Positions 33,800 through 64,000 are shown, counted from the first letter of the stretch. The stretch is 64,000 nt of DNA from an uncultured bacterium (GCA_964482725.1 CAYZYT010000001.1:86318-150317), one strand, 5' to 3'. Program-made: numbers and translations. The notes: generated by a model from the sequence alone, not told the origin.

Positions 33800-33903
33800 A
33801 TTTGATCTCCCGGAGCAAAGCAGTAATGAGATCCCATTTATAAAAAAACGGCCGGAGCTTTTAGACCCGGCCGTTTCCACTGAGTCTATTGTGCCACTTA
33901 ACG

Positions 33904-34176
33904 CTAGAACCCCATTTTCCTTTTCATGTCGTTGCCAGACTTCTGGGCTTCCTTCATGACCTTCTCGGCTTCCCGTCTGGTACAGGCGCCAAGACGATCC
34001 GCTTTTCGTTTTAACAGGATCTGATCCTTTTCCATCCCCTGCTTTCCAAGCGTCCCAAACCAATCTCCGGCTTGATCGATCGGAGTATCCTTAGTGCAAT
34101 CCGCGGCATAAGCGGTCAGGGTGAACCCGCCAAGCATAAGAGTGACAACAAAAAACGCGATGACGAATTTACGCAT
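33904..34176 (-). CDS. Small secreted protein (90 aa), first gene of the operon encoding the giant Ig-repeat protein
   Basis: Signal peptide (MRKFVIAFFVVTLMLGGFTLTAYA). Two Cys and a K/E-rich tail. Confidence 0.5.
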   Translation of the reverse strand: MRKFVIAFFVVTLMLGGFTLTAYAADCTKDTPIDQAGDWFGTLGKQGMEKDQILLKRKADRLGACTRREAEKVMKEAQKSGNDMKRKMGF

Positions 34177-48260: not shown

Positions 48261-48276
48261 AGGGGCTCCTTGTGTT

Positions 48277-48561
48277 TTAAAGTACCGCGGCACTGCTTCC
48301 TGCCGTCGACCCGGTCCGGGCCGGTTTTTCGAATCTCGCCTTCTCCTGAGCATAGGCTTCGCTGGAAGCCGAAGAGGAGGAGGAAGAGGAAGAAGCCATT
48401 TGCTTCGCCTTGCGGGCGGCAAGCGCTGTTCTTGCCGCGCGGATACCGAAGATGGCATAAGCCGACGGTATTTCCAAAAGGAACGCCATGGCCATGAGCC
48501 AAATGATCATTCTAAAAAAATTCTTCATCATAAGCCGTGTTCTCCTTTGGGTGACAGTCAC
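48277..48561 (-). CDS. Hypothetical small membrane protein with a poly-Ser tract
   Basis: MMKNFFRMIIWLMAMAFLLEIPSAYA... followed by an SSSSSSSSASS run. It may be spurious. Confidence 0.3.
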   Translation of the reverse strand: MTVTQRRTRLMMKNFFRMIIWLMAMAFLLEIPSAYAIFGIRAARTALAARKAKQMASSSSSSSSASSEAYAQEKARFEKPARTGSTAGSSAAVL

Positions 48562-48566
48562 CTTTT

Positions 48567-49706
48567 TTACGGTTTGCCGGCAGGATAATACTTTACCGGA
48601 AGCGGACCGAACTCTTTGGCCTCCGCGGTCACGTCACGATATCCCGCGGGCATTTCTGCCGGGATCGTCATGATCCCCTTGGCCTGGGCGAGGGCCTTTG
48701 TCACATCGACCATGCGCCAATCTTTATTGGCGTAGGTATGGAAATAAAACCTTTTTCCGGAAAGGTCCGCAACGACGGCCCATTGGGTTTGGTCGTAGAC
48801 CGGCTCCTTACCGCTCATGTCACGGACTGAACCGATCGGGATATCGATATTGTTGATGATCGTCATCGCGAGATTGAGACCTTCTTCCGCCCCAGTCACG
48901 GGAAGCGATGAATGCACCAGTGCCACCATGCGAACGAACCGGGACGGCGGAGTGTAATCCCCCGGAAGCCCCAACATCCCTGATCCCTGGCCAAAACCGG
49001 ATTGCTTCAATCCTTCGACCGTGAAAGGCTTCGGGTTCGCCGCAGAGAGATTGGCATAATTACGAAGATTGGTCAGATGCCAATCAAACGGCGGCGAGTT
49101 GGTCATCACGCCAAGCGGGTTGTCATAGACCTTGAGTTCACCATTCACATATTCGATGACGATCGAATCCCCTTTTGAATCATGAACGGTATAATGAAGC
49201 GGTAGCTTGCCGACCAGCGCCTCAGGCCCCTTGGAGACGCGAATATTTTTGATGGCTTCTTTCACTTCACCGACCGTAGCGAAATTCGACAAGATCCAGG
49301 TGATCACTTCATACTGAGCGATCGTGCTGGAAGCCTGGGCCGGATCGAATGTCTGGTATCCGGCGTATCCGGGGAACATAAGATTCCCGGCGGCCAATCC
49401 CGCATCGTTCATCCCGTCACTGATCACGGGCAGACCGTACGTATTCATCCCGACCATTCCGTATTTCGTGGTCCACGCGAGGCCGGCTTGAGTGCCATCC
49501 GTCAATGTTCCCTGATATTTCGTTCCTTGGGGGATCACGGACACCGAAGAGTGGAAGAGTTCCCCGCCTTCCATCGTCCGCGCATAAAACACGAGGCCGT
49601 CCGCTGTTTTCACACGAAGACTGGTGCAAGCGCTCGCGCACGGCACGAGCCCCATGCACACTACCATGACTCCACAAAGGATTTTGATCGTCGTCGTCTT
49701 CTTCAT
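48567..49706 (-). CDS. Choloylglycine hydrolase / linear amide C-N hydrolase (Ntn, peptidase C59 family), paralogue 1
   Basis: The signal peptide ends ...CASA-CTSLRV, exposing the N-terminal nucleophile Cys. The body fits the CBAH / penicillin V acylase family. Confidence 0.75.
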   Translation of the reverse strand: MKKTTTIKILCGVMVVCMGLVPCASACTSLRVKTADGLVFYARTMEGGELFHSSVSVIPQGTKYQGTLTDGTQAGLAWTTKYGMVGMNTYGLPVISDGMNDAGLAAGNLMFPGYAGYQTFDPAQASSTIAQYEVITWILSNFATVGEVKEAIKNIRVSKGPEALVGKLPLHYTVHDSKGDSIVIEYVNGELKVYDNPLGVMTNSPPFDWHLTNLRNYANLSAANPKPFTVEGLKQSGFGQGSGMLGLPGDYTPPSRFVRMVALVHSSLPVTGAEEGLNLAMTIINNIDIPIGSVRDMSGKEPVYDQTQWAVVADLSGKRFYFHTYANKDWRMVDVTKALAQAKGIMTIPAEMPAGYRDVTAEAKEFGPLPVKYYPAGKP

Positions 49707-49730
49707 AAGTGTTCCCTTTATTTTACAGTC

Positions 49731-50831
49731 TTATTTGATAGAGTCCGTAATGTCGATGGCCGGCTGATCGATAAAGCTTGAGAAAAGCACAGGCCCGATC
49801 TTTTTTTTCTGCGCGAAAAGCTTATTCAAATCGATGAGTAAATAATTCAGCCGGTGGGCATAGTCGGAGACAAAAATCTTGTTATTTTTGAGGTCTTTGA
49901 TGAGGGTGATCTGCGCCGTCTCCAGCATGGCCTGGCCCTCGTAATCGCCGGAATTGACCGACCCTTTTGGGATATCCACGGTATTGATGATGTGCCCGGC
50001 AAGAGAATACGCTTCTTCCGCCGTATCAACGGGAGCCGCAAAAGAACGGAGCAGGCTTACCTTCACAAATCTGGATGCCGATTTGAAATCCCCGGGAAGT
50101 CCCGTCATCCCGTCGCCGGTGCTGAGTTCTTTTAAGGCATATCCGTCTCGCTCCAACGAAACCATGTCTTTAGGGTTCAGCGTCATATAATTCCGGAGGT
50201 TCGTAAGATGCCAATCATACGTGGGGCTGTTGGTCATCGTATGCGTAACGTTATCATGGATATTCAGCTTGCCCTTCACGTACTCCACAACGATTCCCGC
50301 ACCCGTCCTGTCAGTGATCGCGAAATGGAGCGTAGCACTTCCCTGGGCCGACACCGCAGGTGTCCAGACGGTGCATTTCGGCAAAGCTGCCCGGACTTCC
50401 TGAACCGTCGCAAAGTTCCCCATGATCCAGTCTCCCAGATCCGCCAAAGACACAACAGTTTTGTCTTCGGGCGTCACTGTCTGGAATTCAGTGAATCCCG
50501 GCAAATTCAATCCTTCCATATTAAGCCCGGCTTCGTTCTGAGCGGAATCGAGCCCCTGTTGAACGGTCACGCCCACTCCGGCATAGGCATATTGGCTCAT
50601 CCACGACGTAGGTTTAAAATCTTTCGCCACCTTGTCAGCAGGATAGCTCGCCGTAAAAGTTTCGCCCTTGGGCACCACCACAAAAGTGTACTCCATGGGA
50701 AATCCCCATTCGATCGTGCGCCCGATCACAACGCTGCCGTCTTTTGCTTCCACATCGACAAAAGTACAGGCGCTGACGCACGGCGCCAAAGCTATGCATA
50801 ACGACATTATTAAACCCATGATCTTTTTCAT
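49731..50831 (-). CDS. Choloylglycine hydrolase / linear amide C-N hydrolase family, paralogue 2
   Basis: The signal peptide ends ...CVSA-CTFVDV. Its length and motifs parallel the adjacent paralogue (NLRNY, GDY..SRFV). Confidence 0.75.
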   Translation of the reverse strand: MKKIMGLIMSLCIALAPCVSACTFVDVEAKDGSVVIGRTIEWGFPMEYTFVVVPKGETFTASYPADKVAKDFKPTSWMSQYAYAGVGVTVQQGLDSAQNEAGLNMEGLNLPGFTEFQTVTPEDKTVVSLADLGDWIMGNFATVQEVRAALPKCTVWTPAVSAQGSATLHFAITDRTGAGIVVEYVKGKLNIHDNVTHTMTNSPTYDWHLTNLRNYMTLNPKDMVSLERDGYALKELSTGDGMTGLPGDFKSASRFVKVSLLRSFAAPVDTAEEAYSLAGHIINTVDIPKGSVNSGDYEGQAMLETAQITLIKDLKNNKIFVSDYAHRLNYLLIDLNKLFAQKKKIGPVLFSSFIDQPAIDITDSIK

Positions 50832-53020: not shown

Positions 53021-53166
53021 AGCTCAAGACTTATGGGGCGGGAACATCAAAAGAAAAGGCTTGCCCCGTTAGAGTCTTAAACCACTCAAAGCGGGAGTTG
53101 AAAAAATAAAAGTTGATCTTAATCAGAAATTTCAGATAACAGCTCAAGACTCTAACGGGGGAACAC
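53021..53166 (+). promoter_or_regulatory. Structured 5' leader of gene 53167..53523. A 15-bp perfect inverted repeat sequesters the RBS, and an upstream near-copy offers an alternative pairing. Candidate riboregulator or attenuator.
   Basis: CCCCGTTAGAGTCTT at 53064..53078 is exactly complementary to AAGACTCTAACGGGG at 53146..53160, and the latter overlaps the GGGGGA RBS. A direct repeat of the right arm (AGCTCAAGACTTATGGGGCGGGAACA at 53021..53046) lies upstream and can also pair imperfectly with the middle arm. Confidence 0.45.
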
Positions 53167-53523
53167 ATGAAAAAATATCTTCTGGCGTTTGGGGTGGTTG
53201 CATTGGCCTTGATAAGCTTGGTCTCTACATCGCGGGCCGCCGAGGACAACGCTTTCACAAAATTCGGACGCGGCATGGCCAACATCGTGATCTCCCCCGG
53301 AGAGCTTTACACACAACCGCTATTGCTTTCGAAAAATAACGATGCCCCTGTCGCCATTTTCGGAGGACTACTCAAAGGAACAGCGATATTTCTCGCCCGG
53401 GAAGGGGTGGGAATCTATGAAGTGCTCACGTTCCCCTTTCCGATGCCAAAGGGATACCGGCCGATCATTGAGCCCGCCACAACCTTCACGGATTGGGATA
53501 CCCGCAAGCCCCAGAACGGATAG
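53167..53523 (+). CDS. Small secreted protein. It resembles the exosortase-associated TIGR04073 family.
   Basis: Signal peptide (MKKYLLAFGVVALALISLVSTSRA). The motifs FTKFGRGMANIVISPGELY and GIYEVLTFPFPMPKGY match my recollection of this small-protein family. The family assignment is tentative. Confidence 0.45.
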   Translation: MKKYLLAFGVVALALISLVSTSRAAEDNAFTKFGRGMANIVISPGELYTQPLLLSKNNDAPVAIFGGLLKGTAIFLAREGVGIYEVLTFPFPMPKGYRPIIEPATTFTDWDTRKPQNG

Positions 53524-53814
53524 CGAACATCAAACGCACCCATCAAGTGCTTAGGCTGGGATAATTCCTGATATGATTAGGAGGCCCTGAGAAACCGGCT
53601 ATACTGCCTTTCTCAAAGGGGGTGATTCCATTGGGTAATAAGAGCAATTCGACCAGAGAGAAAAAAAAGAAAAAAGGCGCCTTCAAAGGCAAAAAGAAAT
53701 AAAGCTACAAAAGTGGCGGTTATTCAAACGACCCGCTTGAAAAAGAAATGATAAATTTGGGCTGTCCCTGGATGGCCGCCACTTGAACCCTACCCGAGAA
53801 AGCGCCCTCCCTCT

Positions 53815-54228
53815 TTAATAACCCCAGGGACCCCACGGGCCCCAGACGCCCCAATTGAACATGGTTTCGTTGTTCAGCTCCGCCGTTGTTTCCTGTTCGT
53901 CGGCAAGCTCTGTCTGGTAAACCATTTTCTGATAGTCCTGGTAATTTTTCTCTGTGCCGACATAAACACACTGACAGACCTCGGCATCCGCATAAACATA
54001 CATGACCTGACCCCCTTGGGTATGCGGGATCAGCTTTCGCTGCGGCATACTTTGGACATTCGCCATTTGTTCCGGCGTCTGGGCTTGCTTCATCTGAAAA
54101 CCCGCCGCCGCAAGAGTCTCCTCTTTGGATCTGGCGTTACTATCCCGTATCGTCTGGCAGCCGGTCAGTGCGACCAGGGCACAGACGATCCAAAGGCCTA
54201 TCGAAACTTTCCGTTTTAAGAAAACCAT
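53815..54228 (-). CDS. Lipoprotein, hypothetical
   Basis: ATG at 54228 with a GAGGGG RBS. Lipobox LTGC (MVFLKRKVSIGLWIVCALVALTGCQ). C-terminal WGVWGPWGPWGY aromatic repeat. Confidence 0.5.
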   Translation of the reverse strand: MVFLKRKVSIGLWIVCALVALTGCQTIRDSNARSKEETLAAAGFQMKQAQTPEQMANVQSMPQRKLIPHTQGGQVMYVYADAEVCQCVYVGTEKNYQDYQKMVYQTELADEQETTAELNNETMFNWGVWGPWGPWGY

Positions 54229-54283
54229 AATCCCCTCTTTCCTGTAATATTGCGGTGAATGGCGCGCCACAGGCCCCTTCGCC

Positions 54284-55528
54284 TTATCGCTTCTTCAGTT
54301 CGGCAACCTCTTTTTTCAACACGTTGATCTGCTGTTGCTGTTCCTTAATCGCTTCGATGAGTGGCGGGATAAGTCCATTATATTCTACTAATTTCAGCCC
54401 ATGTTTATCAGACCCGACAATTTCAGGAAAAACCTTTTCCACTTCTTGAGCAATCACTCCCATTTGTAGTGATACACCTCGGTTTTCGTCTTTCCAGTGG
54501 TAGGTTACTCCGCGCAGGTCACAGACCTTTTTAAGAGCCTCAGGAATAGTAGCGATGTCTTTTTTAAGGGAAATGTCAGAAGTGTACTTTGTCACCCCAT
54601 TCACCATCACAGTCGCTGCAACAAGGTCGATCACTCCGGTAACACCATTTATGTGAGGTCCAATATAGATTGAATCATTAGCGCCACCATTACCGCTATT
54701 TACGGTCAAAACAGTTTCGCATCCTGACGTTAGGGATCCTGGATTTGCGGAATACAATTTACCTCGGCCCGGTCCAAAAAAAATAGCTCCATCAACATCG
54801 AGCAGCCCCTCTGGAGCCAAAGTCCCGACACCAACGCTACCGCCCCCAGGGTTTAGAAGAAGGGCCTTCGCCGTTCCAACACCCCCCCATGCCTGCAATC
54901 TTCCATACTCTGCCACGCCAGCATCATACCGATAACCAATTTCAAGTCTGCCGCTATTGGCATCCGAACTGCGAACATGGAGCTGTTGCGCAGCAATGTC
55001 GTCAGGGCCACTCACCACAAGCCTGACGACAGTTGGCGAAGTAAAAGGAAGCACCCCGATGCCGATATTACCGTCAGATGAGATGCGCATGGCTTCATTG
55101 GCTGCATCACTAAGGCTTCCCGATTTCCAGACTTTGAATGAGATCGCGCCTGTTTTATTGTTTGTGGAGCCGGTCAGAAAGTCGATCCCTGCGATGGCGG
55201 AGTTCTTATCGGTCCCGGCACGCCATGCGCCCACAATAGAATCTGTTCCCACATCCTCGTTTCGGAAGAGCTCTATAAAAGAAGCACGGCCAAGCGAATT
55301 AATGGTCAGACCCCGCCCGCCGTAGCCGGCATAATTCGGAGTGGTCGTCCCGATACCGACACTCCCGGAGGTAGTGGCAAAGTAAGCGTTTTCTGTCGTG
55401 CTTAAAGTTTGATACTCCCCCATCGGCGCGGGGTAGTAGGTCGTCAGTTCAACCTTCCCCGCAAAAGCGGAAGAGACCATCGCTAAAAACAAAACGCTCC
55501 AGCCGTATAAAATAATCTTTTTAACCAT
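54284..55528 (-). CDS. Secreted tail-fibre-like protein with a C-terminal peptidase S74 / intramolecular-chaperone (endosialidase chaperone) domain
   Basis: ATG at 55528 (MVKKIILYGWSVLFLAMVSSAFA). Gly/Ser/Thr-rich beta-rich body. The C-terminus SDISLKKDIATIPEALKKVCDLRGVTYHWKD...GVIAQEVEKVFPEIV...LIEAIKEQQQQINVLKKEV matches the S74 autoproteolytic chaperone domain found in phage tail fibres and tailspikes. Confidence 0.7.
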   Translation of the reverse strand: MVKKIILYGWSVLFLAMVSSAFAGKVELTTYYPAPMGEYQTLSTTENAYFATTSGSVGIGTTTPNYAGYGGRGLTINSLGRASFIELFRNEDVGTDSIVGAWRAGTDKNSAIAGIDFLTGSTNNKTGAISFKVWKSGSLSDAANEAMRISSDGNIGIGVLPFTSPTVVRLVVSGPDDIAAQQLHVRSSDANSGRLEIGYRYDAGVAEYGRLQAWGGVGTAKALLLNPGGGSVGVGTLAPEGLLDVDGAIFFGPGRGKLYSANPGSLTSGCETVLTVNSGNGGANDSIYIGPHINGVTGVIDLVAATVMVNGVTKYTSDISLKKDIATIPEALKKVCDLRGVTYHWKDENRGVSLQMGVIAQEVEKVFPEIVGSDKHGLKLVEYNGLIPPLIEAIKEQQQQINVLKKEVAELKKR

Positions 55529-55657
55529 AGGGAAACCTTTCCGTTTCTGTTTTTTCCTAGCATCCGTGCGCTGCACAGAGGACCCTCGCTTGACCTGCGC
55601 CATTCCAAATTTTAACTTTGCCGGCTATCGCCCTGAAGAGTAACTCTCGAAGAACGT

Positions 55658-56914
55658 TCAAAGAGCGCCGGTGTCTTTCCCCTCACGGACAAGCGGGCTG
55701 CCGGCGAGCGGAGTAAAATCCCGGAGCGTCGCCGCAGGGCCAAAGTTTTTGGCTCCTGAAAAAAGCTGCGCGTAATTATTGTTCGTTCCGCTGGTGAATT
55801 GAACCATGACGTTATCCTGGAAGACCGTTCCCGTATCTCCCTCGGTATCGTAATAAGTGAGAACATTGTAGCGGACGATCGCATTCGTCGTTCGGACAAG
55901 CTCTAACCGAGGATAGGTCCTCCAATTGGCGATATCCCCCAGCCAGTCCGCAAGGACCGTGTTATGTTGAATGATCAATCCGGACGCCACATCGTAGACT
56001 GTGATCCCCTGCATTTTCCCGTTATAGATCACGTTTCGTTCGATCAGAATGTCTCTCCCCACGTAAAGCCCGCTGTCGCTCTTGGTTTCGATAAAAATAC
56101 TTTGCATGGAATCGCCCGTGCCCCGCAACATGACGTTGCCGCGGATCACAATATCGGTCATATCTTTGGTGGCGGTCGAATTCCAGAATTGAATAAAATC
56201 CATATGATCCGGTCGAGCCCCCGTAAGGACGGGATGGAAACTTGTGAAGAGATTATTTTCCACAAGCACATGCGACGCGCTCTGGAACGCGACGCCATCG
56301 CAGCGGATATTTTTAAAGGTGTTGTCCCGGACGATGACGTGATCGGTGTCGTAAAAAGTTCCTCCGATATAAAGATCATGCAAGACATTACCTTCGAAGC
56401 GGACATCCTGCGTAAGGCTCGTCCCGAAACCACGCACATCGTTATTGTAAATGCCGTCCACGCTTCCATAGAACTCTGAATCCAGGACTTCAAGGTGTTT
56501 CGAATTCTTGACGTAAAAGGCGCGGGTGTAGTCGGTGTCAGTGGGCAAGCGGTCGTGATGAATCACCACACCCCGGAATCGCACGTAGCTGACGTTGGTA
56601 AGATGGAGGGTGTCGAAAACGGCGCGACGGACCGGATCTTCGGAACGGATCGTGACGTAGCTTGTGTATTGTTTGTTGCTGAAATCGATCGGGGCATAAT
56701 TCCCCGCCGCGAGCACGATCTCTTCGCCTCCGGTCGCACGATTCAGCGCGTTTACAAGCTCTGGACTGGTCGTCACACGGACCGTGGACGGGGTAGAAAC
56801 CCGAGACCCGGAGGATACGTCATGGGCCGCAACGCCGAGTGGGACGGTCTGCAATAAAACAAGGCTAAGGGCAAAAAAAACAACGCCGGCCTTTTGCGCA
56901 TTTCGTGGTTTCAT
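55658..56914 (-). CDS. Secreted right-handed parallel beta-helix (pectin-lyase-fold) protein
   Basis: ATG at 56914 with a GGGAG RBS (the ORF track extends to 56992). Signal peptide (MKPRNAQKAGVVFFALSLVLLQTVPLGVAA). Repeating beta-helix rungs (NVLHDLYIGGTFYDTDHVIVRDNTFKNIRCDGVAFQSASHVLVENNLF). Confidence 0.65.
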   Translation of the reverse strand: MKPRNAQKAGVVFFALSLVLLQTVPLGVAAHDVSSGSRVSTPSTVRVTTSPELVNALNRATGGEEIVLAAGNYAPIDFSNKQYTSYVTIRSEDPVRRAVFDTLHLTNVSYVRFRGVVIHHDRLPTDTDYTRAFYVKNSKHLEVLDSEFYGSVDGIYNNDVRGFGTSLTQDVRFEGNVLHDLYIGGTFYDTDHVIVRDNTFKNIRCDGVAFQSASHVLVENNLFTSFHPVLTGARPDHMDFIQFWNSTATKDMTDIVIRGNVMLRGTGDSMQSIFIETKSDSGLYVGRDILIERNVIYNGKMQGITVYDVASGLIIQHNTVLADWLGDIANWRTYPRLELVRTTNAIVRYNVLTYYDTEGDTGTVFQDNVMVQFTSGTNNNYAQLFSGAKNFGPAATLRDFTPLAGSPLVREGKDTGAL

Positions 56915-57106
56915 TCTTCCCAACTCCCGCCATAACTTCTTATGAACTCTATTCGTCTCAAGTGAAACAACACGGATGATTGACTTCGCCATTTCAAATT
57001 TTCTGATTATAGCCCTTGAGAAATGAACTGCCTAGAAAGAATCGGAAAACAGCCTCCGGGAGACGCCCCGAGCGCTACGCCTATTTTGCATTCCACGCTC
57101 CAGGCT

Positions 57107-58873
57107 CTAGGCTCTTGACAATTTCGCCCGCATCGCCGGAGTCAATTGTTTGACAAGCTCGGCATTGTACGAACCTGTCGGCATAGGTTTGATACTTGGA
57201 TCGGACAGTGGACTCGGATCTTGATATACCGCTCGCGTGTTAACGATCTGCTGCGCTGCAACAGCATAAGAACGCGACTTTGCCGCGGGGGTTCCCTCTT
57301 TGACCGCTGGATCCACGTTGGTCGTTATGATGGAAAGCGTCGCATCACTGTTGAGGTAGATCTCAAACAGGCGGAACTGCTGAGGAAATTCTCTCAGCGA
57401 GGATGTTTCCACCTGCCAAAAGCCTTTTTCAGGATTGCGGACTGGATCCGGAGAAATAAAAGCCTTCACCGTGTTGACATGACGATGCCCCGCGATCCAA
57501 AGAAGGAGATTCGGGTGACTTTGAAGTTCCGCGATCAGATCCGGCAGGGTGACAGCATTTTGAGGATCCCGCCACCATCCCATTTCGGACTGAGTCGGTT
57601 CAACGCTGAGCGGGATATGCGCAGCGATGATCATGAGCTGACCGGCAGCATCGCCCGCCGCAAGTTCTTTTTTAAGCCAGTCCCAACGCTCCGGATCAAG
57701 AAAACCATGCCCATGAATATCCAAAGAGCCGTCGTCTTCCCTTTGGGTATCGTCGAGGACGATCACCTTGATCGGGAGAGTTGACTTCGGCACGAAGCTA
57801 TAACAGGCGAAGCCTTTTCCTTTGCCGGGGTCGACCCCGTTAAACCCATGGCCGACCGGACTCGAAGATGTTTTGAAAAATTCTTTTATCCATTCCGTTC
57901 TTAAAAGTGAACGGCGATCCGGATCGGGAGCCACCTTCGGAGGATTCTTGAAGTTCGCGACAGGCCCCGCGTATTTGATATCACCGTACGGAGTCGAGCC
58001 GTCGAGTACGCCCATATAGTAATCAGGCTTTTTTATATTTCGAGGATCGGCAAGAACATCTCCCGTCGCGAAAACCGTGTCGCTCACATAGGACTTTCGA
58101 AGATCCTCGTTCACAGGGATCGACCCGATCCAGAAATGATCGTGATTGCCGAGAGTCTGATACCAGGGGATCCCCTTATCAAGCCCCGCCGCCTTGTAAG
58201 GCTTCTGATAATCGAGAGTGCCGGCGCCGAGATGAGCGCCCGAACTGGGGGTGATGACCCTGCCATCGAGGACGTCGATATACCATCTGAGTTCGTTCTG
58301 CTGGGTACTGTTGCAGGTATCGCCTAGGGAGATGCCGAAATCAAACGGATTTTTTTTGTGAAGGGCATTGATCGTCTGGACCGCTGCGTCAAGCACGTGC
58401 GTGGTATACAGCATGATCGGCGAATAGATCGAGGTGACCGCCGCATCTCTGGCATTCAGCTGCTGAAGATAGATCAACTGATTGGGAGATTCTTTGTCGG
58501 TGATATGGATGTCGGTGAAGGTAAAGAAATTCAAAAGTTTTGTTTTTTTAGTGACAGAGGCCCCGTCATAAGCACTTCCCATGATGTCGAGCCGCTTTTC
58601 GGAAAGAAGAGGCCCCCCCGCCTTCCATTGACCGTAGCCGTAGAGGCCGAATTTTGCGACCTGGCAAAGATCTTGCGGAAGAAGCTTCCCTGAAAATGTC
58701 GAGGCGGGGACGACCGTCTTCTGGAGCGTCGTAAAGACATCGGAAGCGATCGGGTATCCCTCGAGACGGGCTTGCTCTCGGACGACGCCTTTGGAACATC
58801 CCGATGAGAAGGAGATCAGCGCGCCCATCAAAAAAGTGAAACAGAAAATTTTAAGTCCATCCGATGGCTTCAA
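57107..58873 (-). CDS. Calcineurin-like metallophosphoesterase lipoprotein
   Basis: Lipobox (LISFSSGC). Metallophosphoesterase motifs (FTDIHITD, GDTCN, GNHDHFW, and a later GHRH-like motif). Confidence 0.7.
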   Translation of the reverse strand: MKPSDGLKIFCFTFLMGALISFSSGCSKGVVREQARLEGYPIASDVFTTLQKTVVPASTFSGKLLPQDLCQVAKFGLYGYGQWKAGGPLLSEKRLDIMGSAYDGASVTKKTKLLNFFTFTDIHITDKESPNQLIYLQQLNARDAAVTSIYSPIMLYTTHVLDAAVQTINALHKKNPFDFGISLGDTCNSTQQNELRWYIDVLDGRVITPSSGAHLGAGTLDYQKPYKAAGLDKGIPWYQTLGNHDHFWIGSIPVNEDLRKSYVSDTVFATGDVLADPRNIKKPDYYMGVLDGSTPYGDIKYAGPVANFKNPPKVAPDPDRRSLLRTEWIKEFFKTSSSPVGHGFNGVDPGKGKGFACYSFVPKSTLPIKVIVLDDTQREDDGSLDIHGHGFLDPERWDWLKKELAAGDAAGQLMIIAAHIPLSVEPTQSEMGWWRDPQNAVTLPDLIAELQSHPNLLLWIAGHRHVNTVKAFISPDPVRNPEKGFWQVETSSLREFPQQFRLFEIYLNSDATLSIITTNVDPAVKEGTPAAKSRSYAVAAQQIVNTRAVYQDPSPLSDPSIKPMPTGSYNAELVKQLTPAMRAKLSRA

Positions 58874-59005
58874 AAACCCCTCCCCGGTTAATCGCTCGTG
58901 ATCGACTCGTCCCCTTCGGCTATGCCTTATGATTATATCCTTATTCGGAAGACCCGGATAGGCGTGGTTTCGGGATCTGTGAAACGATTGAACGAACCGC
59001 TAGAA

Positions 59006-60631
59006 CTATTTCCCGGAGACTTCAATAACATAGAGAAGTGGCATATGATCTCGCTCGACTTTGTAGAGCACCTTACCCGGGAAAAGGTTCTGTCTCCCAA
59101 AACGCGTGGTGGACAGGAAAATATCCGGATCCGTTAGGACCATCTCAAAGCGATCACGCAATTCCTGAGTTTTTTCTAAATAATAGCCGGTTTGACACGG
59201 CACCGACGCATTCAGGACCCGGATTTTTCTCTTGAAGGCGGGGTGGTAATTTTTGATCACCCACAGGATCCCTTCTCGATAAGAATTCCCCCAATAATCT
59301 GTTTCGTATTTTGTTGCAGCCTCAGCAAGTCCTCCGGCCAGGACACGATTAAAATACACCGTTTCATAGGGGTGAAGACGGCGCATATCGAGGGCTGTCA
59401 TTGCCAGGGAAAAGGCGATGGCGCAAATAAAAAACACCTTCACCCAATGATTTATTTTTGAATGGACCCACGCGGAAAACGAAAGGCCCCCCAAAATAGC
59501 CAGAAGCGGAATTAGAAAAAGAAAGTGGCGGAATCCGTCAAATTGGGGCGCCTTAAAAAAAATTGACCCCAAAACAGGCCCAAGACATGCGAACACGAGC
59601 AAGCTTACTTGAACAACCTGGAAGGTTAATCTCGGATTTCTAATTATATAAATAACAGCAAGCGCGGCTCCAAGCGACAGAACTATAAAAAAGTACTCCG
59701 GGAGAGAAATCAGAACGGATTGCATTAAATAAGCTTTGGGAAGCTGAAAAGAACTAAAATAATCCCCGTTAAATAACACCTTCATCTCTGTATTAAAATC
59801 CCAACGCGCCGCCTTGATCGCTCCGATGAAAGGACGGGTGAACGGATCGAGCTGTGCCCACGGCCACCAGACCAGCATGACGGGCCAGGCAATTCCAAAG
59901 ATCCACGCCAGATTGCGGATAAACTCGCGAGCGATCTTTTTGAGGCGGGTGTGCGTTGTCGTTACTTTGCCATTGGGGGACCCTTGCCCCAGAAACCACA
60001 AGAACCAGCCAAACAGCATACATGGAAATGCGATAAGCATACCTCCGACGCGTATCGCCATCATCAATCCCAGAGAAAGCCCCAGGAAAAACAGATCCTT
60101 TGGCTTGAGTCTCGGGAGGTTCTCGTAGGCGGCGATCATGCAATAGAGCGCTGTCAGAAACAAGGCTCCGAAAGGAATATCCACGGGGTTATTGAACATG
60201 TGGCCATAAAAAACGGGGTGCAAAGCGAGAAAAAGAGCCGAAAAGAAACCCGCCAGAGTTCCCGCAATTTTTTTCGCAATACAGAAACACATAAAAATAG
60301 TCCAGTAACCCAACAGTGCGCCCAAGAAGTGTCGCGTCTCAAAAACTCCCCAGGGAGATAGTCGGCTTGCTACTTGGGCAAGAACATCAAAAAATCCTCC
60401 ATAGAAAACAAGAACGGGATGCTGAAGAGCCCTCCCATCCTTTAAAAATGAAAGATACCATTTAACAACAAGCTTGCCGTAAGTTTGATGATCCTCTTCA
60501 TCCCAAGTAATGCCGTAATCGCGGAATGTTTTTAAAATAATAAAAAACAGAACGGCAAAAAAAACACAGGCACAGAGCTTGATGATTTTCTCAAAGGTGA
60601 AAGCATTCCATTCCAGGGGGCAGCGCTTCAT
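59006..60631 (-). CDS. Integral-membrane GT-C-type glycosyltransferase (ArnT/PMT/GT39-like)
   Basis: At least 10 TM helices with large periplasmic loops. This is the general GT-C topology. The region is lower in GC than the rest of the window. Confidence 0.5.
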   Translation of the reverse strand: MKRCPLEWNAFTFEKIIKLCACVFFAVLFFIILKTFRDYGITWDEEDHQTYGKLVVKWYLSFLKDGRALQHPVLVFYGGFFDVLAQVASRLSPWGVFETRHFLGALLGYWTIFMCFCIAKKIAGTLAGFFSALFLALHPVFYGHMFNNPVDIPFGALFLTALYCMIAAYENLPRLKPKDLFFLGLSLGLMMAIRVGGMLIAFPCMLFGWFLWFLGQGSPNGKVTTTHTRLKKIAREFIRNLAWIFGIAWPVMLVWWPWAQLDPFTRPFIGAIKAARWDFNTEMKVLFNGDYFSSFQLPKAYLMQSVLISLPEYFFIVLSLGAALAVIYIIRNPRLTFQVVQVSLLVFACLGPVLGSIFFKAPQFDGFRHFLFLIPLLAILGGLSFSAWVHSKINHWVKVFFICAIAFSLAMTALDMRRLHPYETVYFNRVLAGGLAEAATKYETDYWGNSYREGILWVIKNYHPAFKRKIRVLNASVPCQTGYYLEKTQELRDRFEMVLTDPDIFLSTTRFGRQNLFPGKVLYKVERDHMPLLYVIEVSGK

Positions 60632-61464
60632 TAAGATGATGGCGTGCGGGAAGACAGAATTTCTTTTATTTGATCTATTCTTACGTTGAGAGGCTTTCCA
60701 GGGATATGATAAATAAACGACTCTGTCGTCAACTCACCTCTAGGGAAAATCCTCCCATAAAGCTTATGGGTGTATGCGTTCAAAATATGCTGGGGAACAA
60801 ACTGCACCCTTTTGCGAATACCCCTCCAATCCCGGTCGATCAAATCGATGACCGCTCTTTGCCACCACCACGCATGATCGACATATTTTCTAAGCGACCA
60901 GGTTTTTTTAAGCATCGCCTTCACGAAACAAGTATTTTTCAAAAGGGTCACTCCCGTATTCACACCATTGAAATCTTTGGTTAATATCATCTCAATTTGA
61001 GGCGGCGCCTTTTGGATAATTTGCGTCAGGAGATTAAAATCTAAATTCACGATACATGCATCGGCGTCGATCCAGACAACCCATGCCTCAGGATCATTTC
61101 CCACCAAAAAAATAAGCGCATAATACAACGTAGCAGCCGTGAGCCAAGGATAAGGCCGACGGCACATATTCTCCCCTTCAAATATCACAGCCCCAAAATC
61201 GTACCGCTCACAATATTTTTTGATCTGGGATGCGGCAATATCCCCCAAGATTTTATAATCACGGTTGTAGGCGGTAATCATAGTTACTTTCTTTGCCCTA
61301 TAATCGCCGGGGGGCGAGCTAAAATGCGCCTTTATTTGCCTGAGCGGTATTTGATAGCGCGGGAATTCCAACCAATAATATTTGAGATACTTGAACTTCC
61401 TCAAAAAGCTTTTGAGAGTTTGGATTATTTTAGATTTTTTCTCAAAAAACAGTTTCAAACCCAC
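60631..61464 (-). CDS. Putative nucleotide-diphospho-sugar glycosyltransferase (GT-A-like, DxD motif)
   Basis: WIDADA, a DxD-type motif. Low GC. The family assignment is tentative. Confidence 0.4.
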   Translation of the reverse strand: MGLKLFFEKKSKIIQTLKSFLRKFKYLKYYWLEFPRYQIPLRQIKAHFSSPPGDYRAKKVTMITAYNRDYKILGDIAASQIKKYCERYDFGAVIFEGENMCRRPYPWLTAATLYYALIFLVGNDPEAWVVWIDADACIVNLDFNLLTQIIQKAPPQIEMILTKDFNGVNTGVTLLKNTCFVKAMLKKTWSLRKYVDHAWWWQRAVIDLIDRDWRGIRKRVQFVPQHILNAYTHKLYGRIFPRGELTTESFIYHIPGKPLNVRIDQIKEILSSRTPSS

Positions 61465-61549
61465 AGATCCAATTCCTCCCTAATCTCTCGTTTTTACAAT
61501 ATGCTCTGCTCTAGCAAAGCCGCATCAAAACTCGTGGTCATCACAATCC

Positions 61550-62698
61550 TCAAAAGATCAACCACTTGAGAACCCCCGCGGTCGCAACGAGATTAAGCCC
61601 CAAAGCGATCCGATCCCCGCGCCGACCGCTGCGGGCATAGCAAATAAGCAGCAAACCCGCCGACGGAAGCAACAGACGCCCGTACGCCCACGGTTCAGGC
61701 CAAACATTATGGCTCCCCAGGATCGGGAGCAGAGAGAAAAACAAAAACGACATGGAGAGGGCATCCGGACAGCGCCTGACCTCACGCACCGCACTGAACA
61801 GCGTAAAGAGCAGGACCAAAATAAAAGCAGCCAGGCAATACCCGTCCTGGCTCACACCCTGGCCTGAAAAAAACCTCTGGGCCAAGCCCAGGAACGGCAT
61901 ATCAAAATTATGGCCCACGCTCTTTTGTAGAAAAGTTCCGAGCCGAACGTAAACATAGCCCTGCCAGAGCACAAAAGGGATAAGCGCGGTGGCACATATC
62001 GCGGCTTTTCGAAACTGGCGCCGTTGGAACCCTTGATCCAGAATCATGAAGACCGCAATCGGAAGATAGATCTCACGGGTAAGCAAGGCAGCGCTGAGCC
62101 ATAAAGCACAGCCCCAGAAACGCCGCGATTCATACAAAATAAGTGCTGAAACCGCAAGCGTTAGCCCGAGAGGATCCGCCAAGTCACGGAAAAGCCCCAA
62201 AAGATTGCCTCCCAGAAAAGCAAAAACAATGGCCCAAAGAGACGAACGCCCCTGAGAGGCCAAATAGCGCGCTACAAAAAAAGCCCCCATGATAATGGCT
62301 ACAAAATTGATCTGAACCATACGATCCGGATAATTCCGAGGGTCGCCTCCGGCCGTCCAATGCACCAGCAATGGATAAAAAATGCGTTGATAGCGATAAC
62401 CCGGGCCATCGATGTATTTGTAATAATCACTGAGGATCCAAGGATCGTGAGCGATCAGATAAAATAATTGTCCGTCGTAACCCTCGGAATTTTTGAGGTA
62501 AGGGATTCCGGGATCCAGTTTTCCGGGAGGAATAAATTGATCCCCAATGCAAATAAAGCCTCCTGTGTTCCCCCCCAACCTCACAAAATACCCACCCACC
62601 ACACCGAGCAGAATGATGGCGCACAGGAGAGCAACCCCCCAGGGACGGCTCTTCCGGAGTTGATCGAGCACGCGGTCCTGAAAAATGCTTTTATTCAT
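61550..62698 (-). CDS. Hypothetical polytopic membrane protein (possible glycopolymer or O-antigen-like polymerase or transferase)
   Basis: About 10 TM helices. Adjacent to the glycosyltransferases. Confidence 0.45.
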   Translation of the reverse strand: MNKSIFQDRVLDQLRKSRPWGVALLCAIILLGVVGGYFVRLGGNTGGFICIGDQFIPPGKLDPGIPYLKNSEGYDGQLFYLIAHDPWILSDYYKYIDGPGYRYQRIFYPLLVHWTAGGDPRNYPDRMVQINFVAIIMGAFFVARYLASQGRSSLWAIVFAFLGGNLLGLFRDLADPLGLTLAVSALILYESRRFWGCALWLSAALLTREIYLPIAVFMILDQGFQRRQFRKAAICATALIPFVLWQGYVYVRLGTFLQKSVGHNFDMPFLGLAQRFFSGQGVSQDGYCLAAFILVLLFTLFSAVREVRRCPDALSMSFLFFSLLPILGSHNVWPEPWAYGRLLLPSAGLLLICYARSGRRGDRIALGLNLVATAGVLKWLIF

Positions 62699-62922
62699 CT
62701 TCGGGTCTCAATGTTTCTTTTTTAATAATGAAAAATGTTTTTAAAGAATAATCTCCCGTAACCCCATCAAAAGGAGCTACGCCTATCCAAACCATGACGG
62801 TTTCGCGCGGGAAGTTGCCACGCACGAATGAATCAATTGCTGCGAAAATAGCGACCGCTTGCGTTAATCCATTGAACTCAGAAGCATTTCATTCTCCGGT
62901 CGTTACTGCTTTCGCCCCGATT

Positions 62923-63726
62923 TTACCGAGCAACTGCATTGAGTATAGGCCTCAGCAAACGGGAAATGGTTTCTACCCGCCGTGCCCCTGCAAGTTTAAG
63001 CTGCCCACGGCGTTCAAAAACCTGAGCATGCGCAGCACCCTCCACCCGCCCTAGATAACGGAGCCCCATCGCCCTCAGAACCAAGTGAAAAGTGTGTTTA
63101 AGATGGAAAGTGGTTGGCAGATGGCTTTGGATGACAGGAGAAAAACAGTTTGCGAAGATCGCTTTGCCACCCTCTCGAACTGCTTCTGCAATGTCAAAGG
63201 CGATCCGCACAGGATCCTCGACATGTTCCAGAACATCCTGCGCGATAATGGCATCATAGCCAAGGGCTGAAAGCTCACTCACAAAGTGGATCTCTGGTTC
63301 ATTTTTCAGGTACCCCACTGAAACACGAGATGGATAGGGGTCGATGAGCGAAACTTTCGCATTCGGCATGGACCTCATGAGGGCCTGCGCAAGAGCCCCC
63401 CCACCCCCTCCATAATCAGCGATGTTGGCTGCACCGGTTTGTGCGATGTAGGACGCTATAGCTGAGCGATGTCCCGCGGAAACAGGATCGAGCCGGGTGA
63501 AAACGCCATTCATGACCCAGACGGGATGTTTGTAGTAATCGCCTATGGCTTGCCCAGCCAATGGCAACGCATTATTAAGCTTCAATTGTTCCCAGACTCG
63601 ATCCATTTCGGACCAAACCCACTCCACCGTAGGAAGCCTCTGCGGCAGGCTGGCAAGATAGTCGTATTCAGCCTGGTTGAGAAATTCACGAGGGATAGTG
63701 CTGCCCCATAAGTTTACGCCATTCAT
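62923..63726 (-). CDS. Class I SAM-dependent methyltransferase
   Basis: Motif I IADYGGGGGALA and post-I LIDPYP. A Methyltransf_11/23-like fold. Confidence 0.7.
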   Translation of the reverse strand: MNGVNLWGSTIPREFLNQAEYDYLASLPQRLPTVEWVWSEMDRVWEQLKLNNALPLAGQAIGDYYKHPVWVMNGVFTRLDPVSAGHRSAIASYIAQTGAANIADYGGGGGALAQALMRSMPNAKVSLIDPYPSRVSVGYLKNEPEIHFVSELSALGYDAIIAQDVLEHVEDPVRIAFDIAEAVREGGKAIFANCFSPVIQSHLPTTFHLKHTFHLVLRAMGLRYLGRVEGAAHAQVFERRGQLKLAGARRVETISRLLRPILNAVAR

Positions 63727-64000
63727 CTTTTATAACACCCCTCATAAGCATCAATAAATCGCGCCCAATAGACATCCACTTTAATTTCAGTCTCCTTCAA
63801 GCTATTTTACTCCTCAAAGGTTTCTTTAAAATCCGCACCTTCCTGCCGCGGGATCACCGTCCGGTTACCGCATAACCCATAGTTTCAGCGCTAAAATAAA
63901 AGTAATGCCATCGCTTTGTCTAGGCTGTTTGAATTCCTACCCACTAATTAAGAGCAGCCCTTTTTCTCACTATGTCACGCACGTAACGAAGCTGAGCAAT

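What the first reader, a model, noticed from the sequence alone, without database searches (positions are those of the whole stretch)
53815..63726. Low-GC surface-glycan-like cluster containing a non-phage tail-fibre protein with an S74 intramolecular-chaperone domain
The cluster contains the following genes:
- lipoprotein
- S74-domain fibre protein
- beta-helix protein
- metallophosphoesterase lipoprotein
- GT-C glycosyltransferase
- GT-A-like glycosyltransferase
- polytopic membrane protein
- SAM-dependent methyltransferase

The glycosyltransferase genes (about 59.0-61.5 kb) are visibly AT-richer than the surrounding genes, which suggests horizontal acquisition.

The S74 C-terminal chaperone domain (autocleaving, trimer-assisting) is a phage tail-fibre or tailspike hallmark. 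Here it has no other phage genes nearby, which implies a cellular trimeric fibre or adhesin. The fibre is possibly glycosylated by the neighbouring glycosyltransferases. The adjacent beta-helix protein could be a polysaccharide depolymerase-like partner.
Basis: partly seen in the sequence, partly recalled or inferred. Interest (0 to 1): 0.55.

Follow-up and report, generated by a model that had tools for sequence, protein, structure and literature searches.

The report
Cellular tail-fibre-like surface protein beside glycan genes
A bacterium, probably from the little-known phylum Omnitrophota, encodes a secreted phage-tail-fibre-like protein as an ordinary chromosomal gene; it belongs to a large, undescribed family of shuffled surface proteins and merely sits next to a strain-variable sugar-coat gene cluster.

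Summary
The fibre (414 aa, 54284-55528, minus strand) has a genuine S74 chaperone domain with the Ser317/Lys322 dyad. No phage genes occur in the window or in the 9.7 kb beyond its end, which holds more glycosyltransferases.

Low GC is patchy. It affects the GT-C and GT34 genes, methyltransferase third positions, and the 3' half of the fibre gene.

The fibre has a Sec signal peptide followed by an invariant GKVELTTYYPAPxGEY motif. That motif heads at least 4,297 protein clusters. Only 15 of 133 sampled carry S74, none match a Pfam model over the motif, and none were found on viral contigs. All named members are Omnitrophota.

The fibre is a mosaic: aa 1-157 match one relative and aa 230-414 another. 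In a roughly 95%-identical strain, homology stops just after the motif.

The shaft is homologous to Bdellovibrio MAT adhesin fibres, but the N-terminal module is not.

Fibre homologues lie in unrelated housekeeping contexts, so a functional tie to the glycan genes is unsupported. The beta-helix protein resembles polysaccharide lyases and epimerases and tracks glycan loci.

Verdict: a cellular, S74-matured mosaic surface fibre, a new variant of a known kind.

The parts
54284..55528 (-). Fibre gene (414 aa). Modules: signal peptide, N-terminal constant module, shaft modules A (aa 65-157) and B (158-229), tip (230-316), and S74 chaperone (317-414).
   Evidence: Pfam S74. P0001 is the identical NCBI gene call. 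The family profile hits MAT fibre structures and phage fibres in the PDB.
55460..55528 (-). Sec-type signal peptide, MVKKIILYGWSVLFLAMVSSAFA, with cleavage expected before G24.
   Evidence: Read directly from the sequence. An AxA-G junction immediately before the motif is conserved across the family. No signal-peptide predictor was available.
55412..55444 (-). Invariant N-terminal motif TTYYPAPMGEY (aa 29-39), the core of the constant module (aa 24-64).
   Evidence: Y, Y, P, P, G and Y are invariant in alignments A1, A4 and A5. A profile of the motif finds 4,297 representative proteins, always at about aa 20-65.
54287..54580 (-). S74 intramolecular chaperone and self-cleaving domain. Ser317 is at 54578-54580 and Lys322 at 54563-54565. 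It ends in a coiled-coil-like helix.
   Evidence: Pfam 63 bits. S317, D318 and K322 are conserved in at least 90% of alignment A1. The region aligns to the SSDRRIKKDI segment of phage S16 fibre 6F45.
55658..56992 (-). Secreted right-handed beta-helix protein (444 aa), resembling polysaccharide lyases and epimerases.
   Evidence: Pfam Beta_helix/NosD. The AF2 core has pLDDT above 85. Top Foldseek hits are alginate lyase 6KFN, the Vibrio polysaccharide lyase RbmB, PL6 lyases and the AlgE/AlgG epimerases. Only 9 homologues were found.
57006..57071 (-). Terminator-like hairpin (57071-57056) followed by the best promoter-like site in the region (TAGGCA-17-TATAAT, 57034-57006).
   Evidence: This is a consensus match only: 14 promoter-like sites were found against 10.9 expected by chance, and 21 terminator-like sites against 15.4.
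53815..54228 (-). Small lipoprotein (137 aa from ATG 54228; lipobox LTGC; C-terminus WGVWGPWGPWGY). It is not conserved next to fibre homologues.
   Evidence: no tblastn hit in 94 loci; no family.
53678..53691 (-). Terminator-like hairpin plus T-run downstream of the lipoprotein gene.
   Evidence: consensus match only.
57107..58873 (-). TIGR03768-family metallophosphoesterase with a probable lipobox (FSSGC). An alternative start lies at 58828.
   Evidence: (778 bits against a cutoff of 387), and for the alternative gene call.
59006..60631 (-). GT-C fold glycosyltransferase (PMT_2/ArnT-like, 541 aa). Low GC.
   Evidence: 45 bits against a cutoff of 26; GC 0.466. A WDEEDH acidic motif follows the first transmembrane segment (read from the sequence).
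60631..61464 (-). GT34-like (GMA12/MNN10 family) glycosyltransferase. It has the lowest GC in the window.
   Evidence: (GC 0.424).
61550..62698 (-). Polytopic membrane protein of the AZOBR_p60025 family ('cell surface glycopolymer formation protein').
   Evidence: NF046093, 163 bits against a cutoff of 150.
62923..63726 (-). SAM-dependent methyltransferase. It lies in a strain-variable cassette whose conserved-side border is at about window 62791.
   Evidence: Searches show L099 is about 95% identical to L001 except across L001 7996-10936.
62791..64000 (-). Start of the variable part of the glycan locus. The locus continues at least 9.7 kb beyond the window: Nucleotid_trans, GT2, GT4, a 255-aa protein, a GT7/10-like protein, a 905-aa GT2 and an epimerase.
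   Evidence: L001 overlaps the window with 0 mismatches in 8,676 bases. Upstream glycosyltransferase genes have GC 0.40-0.47.

Best explanation
The 414-aa gene encodes a cellular, Sec-exported, trimeric surface fibre. It is not a phage part.

Proposed steps:
1. The signal peptide is removed.
2. The C-terminal S74 domain nucleates trimerisation of the beta-helical shaft and tip.
3. The S74 domain then cuts itself off at Ser317, with Lys322 as the general base. This leaves a mature fibre of about 293 aa.
4. The constant N-terminal module (GKVELTTYYPAPxGEY...VGIGT) holds the fibre on the cell, and the exchangeable C-terminal tip binds a ligand.

The protein belongs to a very large family, apparently specific to Omnitrophota. 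Family members share the constant N-terminal module joined to swappable C-terminal modules: S74 fibres, lectin-like tips and many unknown domains. This is the same design as the Bdellovibrio MAT adhesin fibres, so the likely job is recognition of and attachment to other cells or surface glycans.

The adjacent genes (GT-C, GT34, AZOBR_p60025 protein, methyltransferase, further glycosyltransferases beyond the window, the TIGR03768 phosphoesterase, and probably the beta-helix lyase/epimerase-like enzyme) form a separate, strain-variable surface-glycopolymer locus.

What is shown: domain content, dyad conservation, non-phage context, family size, mosaicism, strain-level replacement and composition. 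What is inferred: export, trimerisation, self-cleavage, N-terminal anchoring and an adhesive function.
For: S74 domain:
- It scores above threshold, and S317, D318 and K322 are conserved.

Non-phage context:
- The window and 9.7 kb beyond it hold no phage structural genes.
- Homologues P0004, P0016, P0006 and P0002 lie among dnaE, guaA, lpxD, serS and ruvC/ruvA.
- The signal peptide and N-motif are conserved.

Family:
- The N-motif profile finds 4,297 representative proteins, with the motif always directly after the signal peptide.
- Only 15 of 133 sampled members have S74. Others carry Gp34_trimer, L-type lectin or Lcl_C domains.
- No relatives were found in 2.9 million viral contigs.
- Every named member is Omnitrophota.

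Mosaicism and variability:
- aa 1-157 are 77% identical to P0003, whose remainder is unrelated. aa 230-414 are 81% identical to P0002.
- Strain L094 is 94.6% identical in nucleotides up to codon ~40 of the fibre, and homology is lost after that.
- L014 has two tandem fibres at the same site.
- GC3 falls from 0.61 in the N-module to 0.38-0.43 in the tip and S74. Family genes are GC3-poor in three genomes.

Relation to MAT fibres:
- The family profile hits the MAT fibre structure 8OND (Bd2133) at E 7.5e-12, and also 8OML and 8OJN.
- MAT biology is described in PMC10769870.
Against: - The AF2 monomer model of the fibre is unusable (pLDDT 41), so the trimeric beta-helix and the fold of the N-module are not shown.
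- No signal-peptide predictor was run.
- Taxonomy rests on homologues, not on the window's own record.
- The N-module is not homologous to the MAT N-domain (hhalign probability 0.9%), and how it anchors the fibre is unknown.
- The family count comes from a 42-position profile and may include some false positives.
- The beta-helix-then-fibre order is kept in two relatives, so the fibre may not be fully independent of its neighbours.
- There is no expression or localisation data.
Confidence: 0.7

Rival explanations
1. Attack pair. The beta-helix enzyme and the fibre are co-transcribed and work together against another cell. The fibre binds a prey or host surface glycan, and the secreted lyase-like enzyme degrades its capsule or matrix, as phage tailspikes combine both activities.
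For: The beta-helix-then-fibre order is kept in L094 (beta-helix 94% identical) and L014 (79%). A promoter-like site lies before the beta-helix gene and a terminator-like site after the lipoprotein gene. The fold resembles lyases, with phage tailspikes among lower-ranked hits, and there is a weak PHROG tailspike hit. Both proteins have signal peptides.
Against: In L095 (beta-helix 72% identical) the next gene is not a fibre. The 37%-identical homologue P0123 lies between a type I secretion system and a Wzy/Wzx/glycosyltransferase locus. None of about 90 other S74 fibre loci has this enzyme. The promoter and terminator matches are barely above chance.
Confidence: 0.2
2. One glycan-plus-fibre unit. 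Either the fibre is O-glycosylated by the neighbouring GT-C and other glycosyltransferases, or it is anchored to the glycopolymer those genes make.
For: The genes are adjacent and on the same strand. PMT_2-type GT-C enzymes include protein O-mannosyltransferases (established knowledge). The fibre has Thr/Ser/Pro-rich stretches such as TTYYPAP and GTTTP. Two homologues also lie near envelope glycosyltransferases.
Against: None of the glycan genes co-occurs with fibre homologues in 94 loci. Homologues sit beside ruvA, dnaE and pilin genes. The related strain L099 keeps the glycan genes and varies them independently. No glycosylation evidence can be obtained from sequence.
Confidence: 0.12
3. A relic of a degraded prophage or tailocin: a stranded tail-fibre gene with no current cellular role.
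For: PHROG tail-fibre families match the C-terminal 100-300 aa. GC3 is low in the 3' half.
Against: There are no other phage genes within about 54 kb on one side and 18 kb on the other. The ORF is intact with a conserved catalytic dyad. A signal peptide is incompatible with cytoplasmic tail assembly. The N-module is shared by thousands of non-viral proteins and is absent from viral contigs.
Confidence: 0.04

Closest known systems
Bdellovibrio bacteriovorus MAT (mosaic adhesive trimer) fibres, S74 subgroup, e.g. Bd3182 (Caulton et al. 2024, PMC10769870)
   Same: Chromosomal and non-phage. Both have a signal peptide, a constant N-terminal part, a shaft with V-G-x-G..P...L capping-loop motifs, swappable C-terminal tips, and a C-terminal S74 domain with SDxxxK in only a subset of members (13 of 21 in Bdellovibrio, 15 of 133 here). 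The family profile hits the MAT structures 8OND, 8OML and 8OJN.
   Different: The N-terminal module is unrelated: a roughly 40-aa TTYYPAPxGEY module against a roughly 130-aa beta-rich domain (hhalign probability 0.9%). The proteins here are much shorter (about 100-450 aa against about 700-1,900 aa). The phylum differs. There are also 71-77-aa mini-proteins carrying only the module. No localisation or prey-binding data exist.
Phage tail fibres and tailspikes with a C-terminal intramolecular chaperone (K1F endosialidase, T5 L-shaped fibre, S16 long tail fibre 6F45)
   Same: S74 domain with a Ser-Lys dyad and a terminal helix. The shaft is homologous to PHROG tail-fibre families.
   Different: The protein here has a Sec signal peptide, no N-terminal virion-attachment domain and no phage neighbours. 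The N-module is absent from viral contigs.
Myelin regulatory factor (MYRF), a eukaryotic S74-containing protein
   Same: A non-viral use of the S74 trimerise-then-cleave domain. PDB 7DC3 is hit at E 3.8e-9.
   Different: MYRF is a membrane-bound transcription factor and is otherwise unrelated in architecture and role.
Strain-variable O-antigen, capsule or EPS loci with an in-locus lyase or epimerase (e.g. AlgL/AlgG in alginate loci, RbmB for Vibrio polysaccharide)
   Same: Many glycosyltransferases, low GC, cassette replacement between roughly 95%-identical strains, and a beta-helix lyase/epimerase-like enzyme at the edge of the locus.
   Different: No Wzx, Wzy, ABC or export genes were seen in the 28 kb examined. 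The locus uses a GT-C, an AZOBR_p60025 protein and a TIGR03768 phosphoesterase, and the product of that combination is unknown.

Membership tests
Peptidase_S74 / C-terminal intramolecular chaperone domain | Match to the family model above its curated threshold, located at the C-terminus | tested here: met
   63.2 bits against a cutoff of 22, at aa 317-371 of 414.
Peptidase_S74 / C-terminal intramolecular chaperone domain | Catalytic Ser and a Lys five residues later (SDxxxK) | tested here: met
   S317-D-I-S-L-K322. The positions are conserved in at least 90% of 11 homologues and align with 6F45.
Peptidase_S74 / C-terminal intramolecular chaperone domain | Trimerisation-dependent self-cleavage | not testable with these tools
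   Needs protein expression with S317A and K322A controls.
Bdellovibrio MAT fibre family | Conserved beta-rich N-terminal domain of about 130 aa directly after the signal peptide | tested here: not met
   Bdellovibrio N-domains (FTYQGRI...) against the N-module profile give hhalign probability 0.9%.
Bdellovibrio MAT fibre family | Beta-helical shaft with capping-loop motif V-G-G/N-pi-x-x-P-x-x-x-L | tested here: met
   VGIGTTTP at aa 57 and VGVGTLAP at aa 232, plus a looser GNIGIGVLP copy near aa 153. The profile hits 8OND at E 7.5e-12, 8OML at 3.5e-7 and 8OJN at 8e-6. This is sequence-level evidence only.
Bdellovibrio MAT fibre family | Mosaic, exchangeable C-terminal modules with both S74 and non-S74 members | tested here: met
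   (L012 has one S74 member and two non-S74 members).
Bdellovibrio MAT fibre family | Surface display and prey binding | not testable with these tools
   No cultured organism or data.
Prophage, tailocin or contractile-injection tail module | Neighbouring tail, baseplate, capsid, terminase or integrase genes | tested here: not met
   PHROG and Pfam scans of window ORFs find none. The extension L001 holds only glycan genes.
Surface glycopolymer biosynthesis locus | Several glycosyltransferases plus glycopolymer-specific membrane proteins | tested here: met
   GT-C, GT34, NF046093, and beyond the window GT2 (twice), GT4, GT7/10-like, Nucleotid_trans and an epimerase.
Surface glycopolymer biosynthesis locus | Flippase, polymerase or exporter (Wzx/Wzy, ABC or synthase) | tested here: inconclusive
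   None was recognised in the 28 kb seen. The locus may extend further, or the GT-C and NF046093 proteins may act on the outer face of the membrane.
TIGR03768 metallophosphoesterase | Score above the NCBIfam cutoff | tested here: met
   778 bits against a cutoff of 387.

The most novel reading that the evidence does not exclude
The TTYYPAPxGEY module marks a previously undescribed, phylum-wide and horizontally shuffled repertoire of Omnitrophota surface fibres and lectin-like tips. It would be an independent counterpart of the Bdellovibrio MAT system, used by these ultra-small, putatively predatory or parasitic bacteria to recognise host or prey cells. The module itself would be a new kind of cell-surface docking device, possibly tied to type IV pili in some lineages.
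Probability: 0.4. Interest if true: 0.75.

Novelty: new variant of a known kind. Interest (0 to 1): 0.55.

Why it matters
Omnitrophota are uncultured nanobacteria suspected of living off other cells. So far only their giant proteins and pili have been proposed as contact factors (PMC10066038; bioRxiv 10.1101/2023.11.21.568195).

A family with thousands of sequence clusters, a constant N-terminus, variable tips and strain-level hypervariability is a concrete candidate for host or prey recognition. It gives a sequence handle, the N-motif, for cataloguing that repertoire.

It also shows that the phage S74 fold-then-cut device has been adopted by cellular adhesins outside Bdellovibrio, on a different N-terminal anchor.

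The glycan cluster itself is an ordinary kind of strain-variable surface-sugar locus.

Tried and rejected
- The AF2 monomer model of the fibre failed (pLDDT 41, pTM 0.20), so no fold search was run on it.
- The metagenome scan with the beta-helix protein gave only one 2.1-kb locus.
- The beta-helix protein has no significant sequence match in the PDB.
- Look-up of mini-protein P0168 failed because it is not on record.
- Cluster look-ups returned no organism names, so taxonomy rests on named homologues.
- The pilus-association idea was tested. Four prepilin-like genes precede homologue P0004, and a PilT-like ATPase precedes mini-protein P0172. A prepilin-motif scan of 12 sequences (the window plus 11 loci) found such genes only in L003, so this stays a lead and is not a rule.
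- No silent fibre cassettes, shufflon-like repeats or second copies exist in the window.
- The literature searches found no description of the motif or of S74 fibres in Omnitrophota.
- The prophage reading is rejected (see the rival explanations).

Full report
**Observation**

| Coordinates | Identity | Evidence |
|---|---|---|
| 54284-55603 | Peptidase_S74, 63 bits against a cutoff of 22 | |
| 55658-56992 | Beta_helix/NosD | |
| 57107-58873 | Metallophos; TIGR03768, 778 bits against a cutoff of 387 | |
| 59006-60631 | PMT_2 (GT-C) | |
| 60631-61464 | Glyco_transf_34 | |
| 61550-62698 | No Pfam; NF046093 'AZOBR_p60025 family cell surface glycopolymer formation protein' | |
| 62923-63726 | SAM methyltransferase | |
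| 53815-54270 | No family; canonical lipobox LTGC | |

The fibre most likely starts at ATG 55528, giving 414 aa. A GGAAAGG sequence lies 8-14 nt upstream. This start matches the identical NCBI gene call P0001 and the family alignment.

**Is it a prophage?**

- A Logan contig, L001, overlaps the last 8,676 bases of the window with zero mismatches and runs 9.7 kb further.
- That stretch encodes a Nucleotid_trans protein, a GT2, a GT4, a 255-aa protein, a GT7/10-like protein, a 905-aa GT2 and an epimerase.
- Inside the window the other genes are chromosomal: hrcA-grpE-dnaJ, murB, gpsA, FadL, a two-component system, three CBAH hydrolases and sulphur-transport genes.
- PHROG scans find no phage structural genes apart from the fibre itself and a weak tailspike hit for the beta-helix protein.
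- No tRNA genes are present.

**Composition**

Thirty other genes in the window give GC 0.523 +/- 0.021 and GC3 0.617 +/- 0.035.

| Gene | GC | GC3 | z (GC / GC3) |
|---|---|---|---|
| GT-C | 0.466 | 0.511 | -2.7 / -3.0 |
| GT34 | 0.424 | 0.482 | -4.7 / -3.8 |
| Methyltransferase | 0.527 | 0.519 | 0.2 / -2.8 |
| Fibre | 0.495 | 0.482 | -1.3 / -3.8 |

- The beta-helix, phosphoesterase, polytopic and lipoprotein genes are normal.
- The glycosyltransferase genes beyond the window are also AT-rich, with GC 0.40-0.47.
- Within the fibre gene, GC3 falls from 0.61 (N-module) through 0.56 and 0.47 (shaft modules) to 0.38 (tip) and 0.43 (S74).
- Fibre-family genes are likewise GC3-poor relative to their neighbours in two other genomes.

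**Fibre anatomy**

The protein reads as follows:
- Signal peptide: MVKKIILYGWSVLFLAMVSSAFA, cut before G24.
- Constant module: GKVELTTYYPAPMGEYQTLSTTENAYFATTSGSVGIGTTTPN.
- Shaft module A (aa 65-157) and shaft module B (aa 158-229).
- Tip (aa 230-316).
- S74 domain (aa 317-414), beginning S317-D-I-S-L-K322 and ending in a coiled-coil-like helix.

Supporting evidence:
- Ser, Asp and Lys are conserved in at least 90% of 11 homologues. They align with the chaperone domain of the phage S16 fibre 6F45.
- A profile of the family hits 6F45 and 8JOV (phage fibres) and 7DC3 (MYRF). Through the shaft it also hits the Bdellovibrio MAT fibre structures 8OND (Bd2133, E 7.5e-12), 8OML and 8OJN.
- The AF2 monomer model was unusable (pLDDT 41), as expected for an obligate trimer with a shallow alignment.

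**Who has it, and where?**

- Of 859 homologues, most share only the S74 end.
- Full-length relatives are named Candidatus Omnitrophota or Gygaella obscura.
- They lie in unrelated cellular contexts:
  - P0004 lies between four prepilin-like genes and guaB-like, guaA and dnaE genes.
  - P0016 lies between LPS-core glycosyltransferases and serS/rtcB.
  - P0006 lies next to a GT2 and a GGDEF-EAL gene.
  - P0002 lies between ruvC and ruvA.
- In a GTDB scan, S74 fibres turn up widely in Omnitrophota, Patescibacteria, Bdellovibrionota, Bacteroidota and DPANN archaea.
- The three GTDB loci carrying the N-motif are all Omnitrophota.
- tblastn of the window's seven neighbouring proteins against the 94 other loci then held found none of them next to a fibre. 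The one exception is the beta-helix gene in L014.
- The window's organism is therefore probably an Omnitrophota. This is an inference from the 79%-identical beta-helix protein in an Omnitrophota MAG, the fibre relatives, and a 4,471-aa giant ORF.

**A large hidden family**

- All full-length relatives share the invariant stretch T-T-Y-Y-P-x-P-x-G-x-Y directly after an AxA-G signal-peptidase site.
- A 42-position profile of this module was searched exhaustively against 1.84 billion representative proteins. It found 4,297 proteins at E <= 1e-3 and 89 at E <= 1e-10.
- The match is almost always at residues ~20-65, and protein lengths are mostly 100-450 aa.
- Among 133 top members, only 15 carry S74. 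Single members carry Gp34_trimer, an L-type lectin or Lcl_C. The rest match no Pfam family, and no Pfam or NCBIfam model covers the module.
- There are also mini-proteins of 71-77 aa that consist of the signal peptide, the module and a short tail ending GEIWVE.
- Several members can occur close together: three in L012 (one with S74, two without), two in tandem in L014, and two mini-proteins listed with the same 61,009-bp longest contig.
- A scan of 2.9 million viral contigs with the module found no relative.
- Full-text searches found no paper mentioning the motif or S74 fibres in Omnitrophota.

**Mosaicism and strain variation**

- Residues 1-157 are 77% identical to P0003, whose C-terminal half is unrelated and lacks S74.
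- Residues 230-414 are 81% identical to P0002, whose middle differs.
- The joints fall at the VGIGT-type motifs.
- Metagenome contig L094 is 94.6% identical in nucleotides to the window from 57148 to 55410. That span covers the beta-helix gene, the spacer and the first ~40 codons of the fibre. After that, homology collapses, and the fibre is 59% identical in protein over the aligned part.
- MAG L014 keeps the beta-helix gene (79% identical over the 70 aa available) but has two tandem fibres that are only ~31% identical to this one.
- The glycan locus varies independently. L099 is ~95% identical to L001 except for a replaced cassette. That cassette covers the methyltransferase, Nucleotid_trans, GT2 and the end of GT4, and its border falls at about window 62791.
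- A 2026 preprint lists LPS and capsule glycosyltransferases among the hypervariable loci of Omnitrophota genomes.

**The neighbours**

- The beta-helix protein has a signal peptide and only nine detectable homologues.
- Its AF2 core is confident, with pLDDT above 85 for about aa 70-400.
- The model resembles alginate lyase 6KFN, the Vibrio polysaccharide lyase RbmB, PL6 lyases, chondroitinase B and the AlgE/AlgG epimerases. Phage tailspikes rank lower.
- Its 37%-identical relative P0123 sits between a type I secretion system and a Wzy/Wzx/glycosyltransferase locus. The 72%-identical relative in L095 is not followed by a fibre.
- A terminator-like hairpin and the best promoter-like site in the region lie between the phosphoesterase and beta-helix genes. 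A terminator-like site follows the lipoprotein gene. These are consensus matches, barely above the shuffled expectation.
- The lipoprotein is not found next to any other fibre.

**Most likely mechanism**

Shown:
- Domain content and a conserved dyad.
- A non-phage chromosomal setting.
- A constant N-terminus with variable C-terminal modules.
- Strain-level replacement and atypical composition.

Inferred:
- Sec export.
- S74-templated trimerisation of the shaft and tip.
- Self-cleavage at Ser317, releasing a 98-aa chaperone.
- Docking through the N-module.
- Ligand binding by the tip.
- A role in attachment to other cells or glycans, by analogy with the Bdellovibrio MAT fibres. In those, S74 cleavage was demonstrated (Bd3182, S782A) and the fibres sit on the predator surface (PMC10769870).

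The glycan genes are best read as a separate, ordinary strain-variable surface-glycopolymer locus, to which the beta-helix enzyme probably belongs.

**Comparison with the known**

The fibre works like a MAT fibre, and its shaft is homologous to MAT shafts. It fails one defining feature of that family, the ~130-aa N-terminal domain (hhalign probability 0.9%). It is therefore a parallel family built on a different anchor, not a member. It is a bona fide S74 protein. It is not a prophage, tailocin or contractile-injection component by any test available here.

**Verdict**

- The 'non-phage fibre' reading is supported.
- The 'one glycan-fibre cluster', 'glycosylated fibre' and 'beta-helix partner' readings are unsupported or open.
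- Cellular S74 fibres have been known since 2024, so the core finding is a new variant of a known kind.
- The added value is the large, unannotated N-motif family, apparently specific to Omnitrophota, and its clear mosaic and hypervariable behaviour.
- Interest 0.55.

Noticed in passing
window 53167-53523 (+): A small exported protein of the TIGR04073 'exosortase system-associated' family (73 bits against a cutoff of 50), convergent with the cluster. An 18-nt inverted repeat (53061-53078 / 53146-53163) lies mostly just upstream, its second arm ending about 3 nt before the start codon.
   Followed up: partly
window 3274-16689 (-) and 28601-34063 (-): A 4,471-aa giant ORF with only traces of RHS, ILEI and glucoamylase-like domains, and a 1,820-aa ORF rich in BACON and Ig-like domains. 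These look like the giant proteins reported for Omnitrophota.
   Followed up: partly
L003 8121-9956, upstream of fibre homologue P0004 at 10001-11299: Four genes with prepilin-type N-termini (GFTLLEL, GFTLAEL and similar) directly precede a 42%-identical fibre, in the position an adhesin such as PilY1 occupies in minor-pilin operons. No prepilin genes lie near the other family loci checked.
   Followed up: partly
L097 6817-9696: A 72-aa mini-protein consisting of a signal peptide, the TTYYPAPYGEY module and a GEIWVE tail. It sits between a PilT-like ATPase gene and a 489-aa secreted protein with no family match. Such mini-proteins are numerous.
   Followed up: partly
L012 6006-6716, 6918-7880 and 16719-17459; L014 439-1587 and 1665-2810: Several N-motif family genes lie close together, with near-identical signal peptides and different C-termini. 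Their GC3 is 0.41-0.51 against 0.60-0.71 for neighbouring genes.
   Followed up: yes
window 46992-50831 (-): Three tandem paralogues of the choloylglycine hydrolase / linear amide hydrolase (CBAH) family, next to split sulphur-transport genes.
   Followed up: no
L015, L019 and L031 (Patescibacteria S74 fibre loci): Patescibacterial S74 fibres carry their own recurring N-terminal motif after the signal peptide (W-x-x-P...AP-I/L-N-x-G). This suggests lineage-specific anchor modules on a shared fibre and S74 chassis.
   Followed up: no
L001 7996-10936, against L099 5619-7631: Cassette replacement inside the glycan locus between ~95%-identical strains. One strain has the end of GT4, a GT2, a Nucleotid_trans protein and a methyltransferase; the other has a GT4-methyltransferase fusion and a 467-aa unknown protein.
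   Followed up: yes
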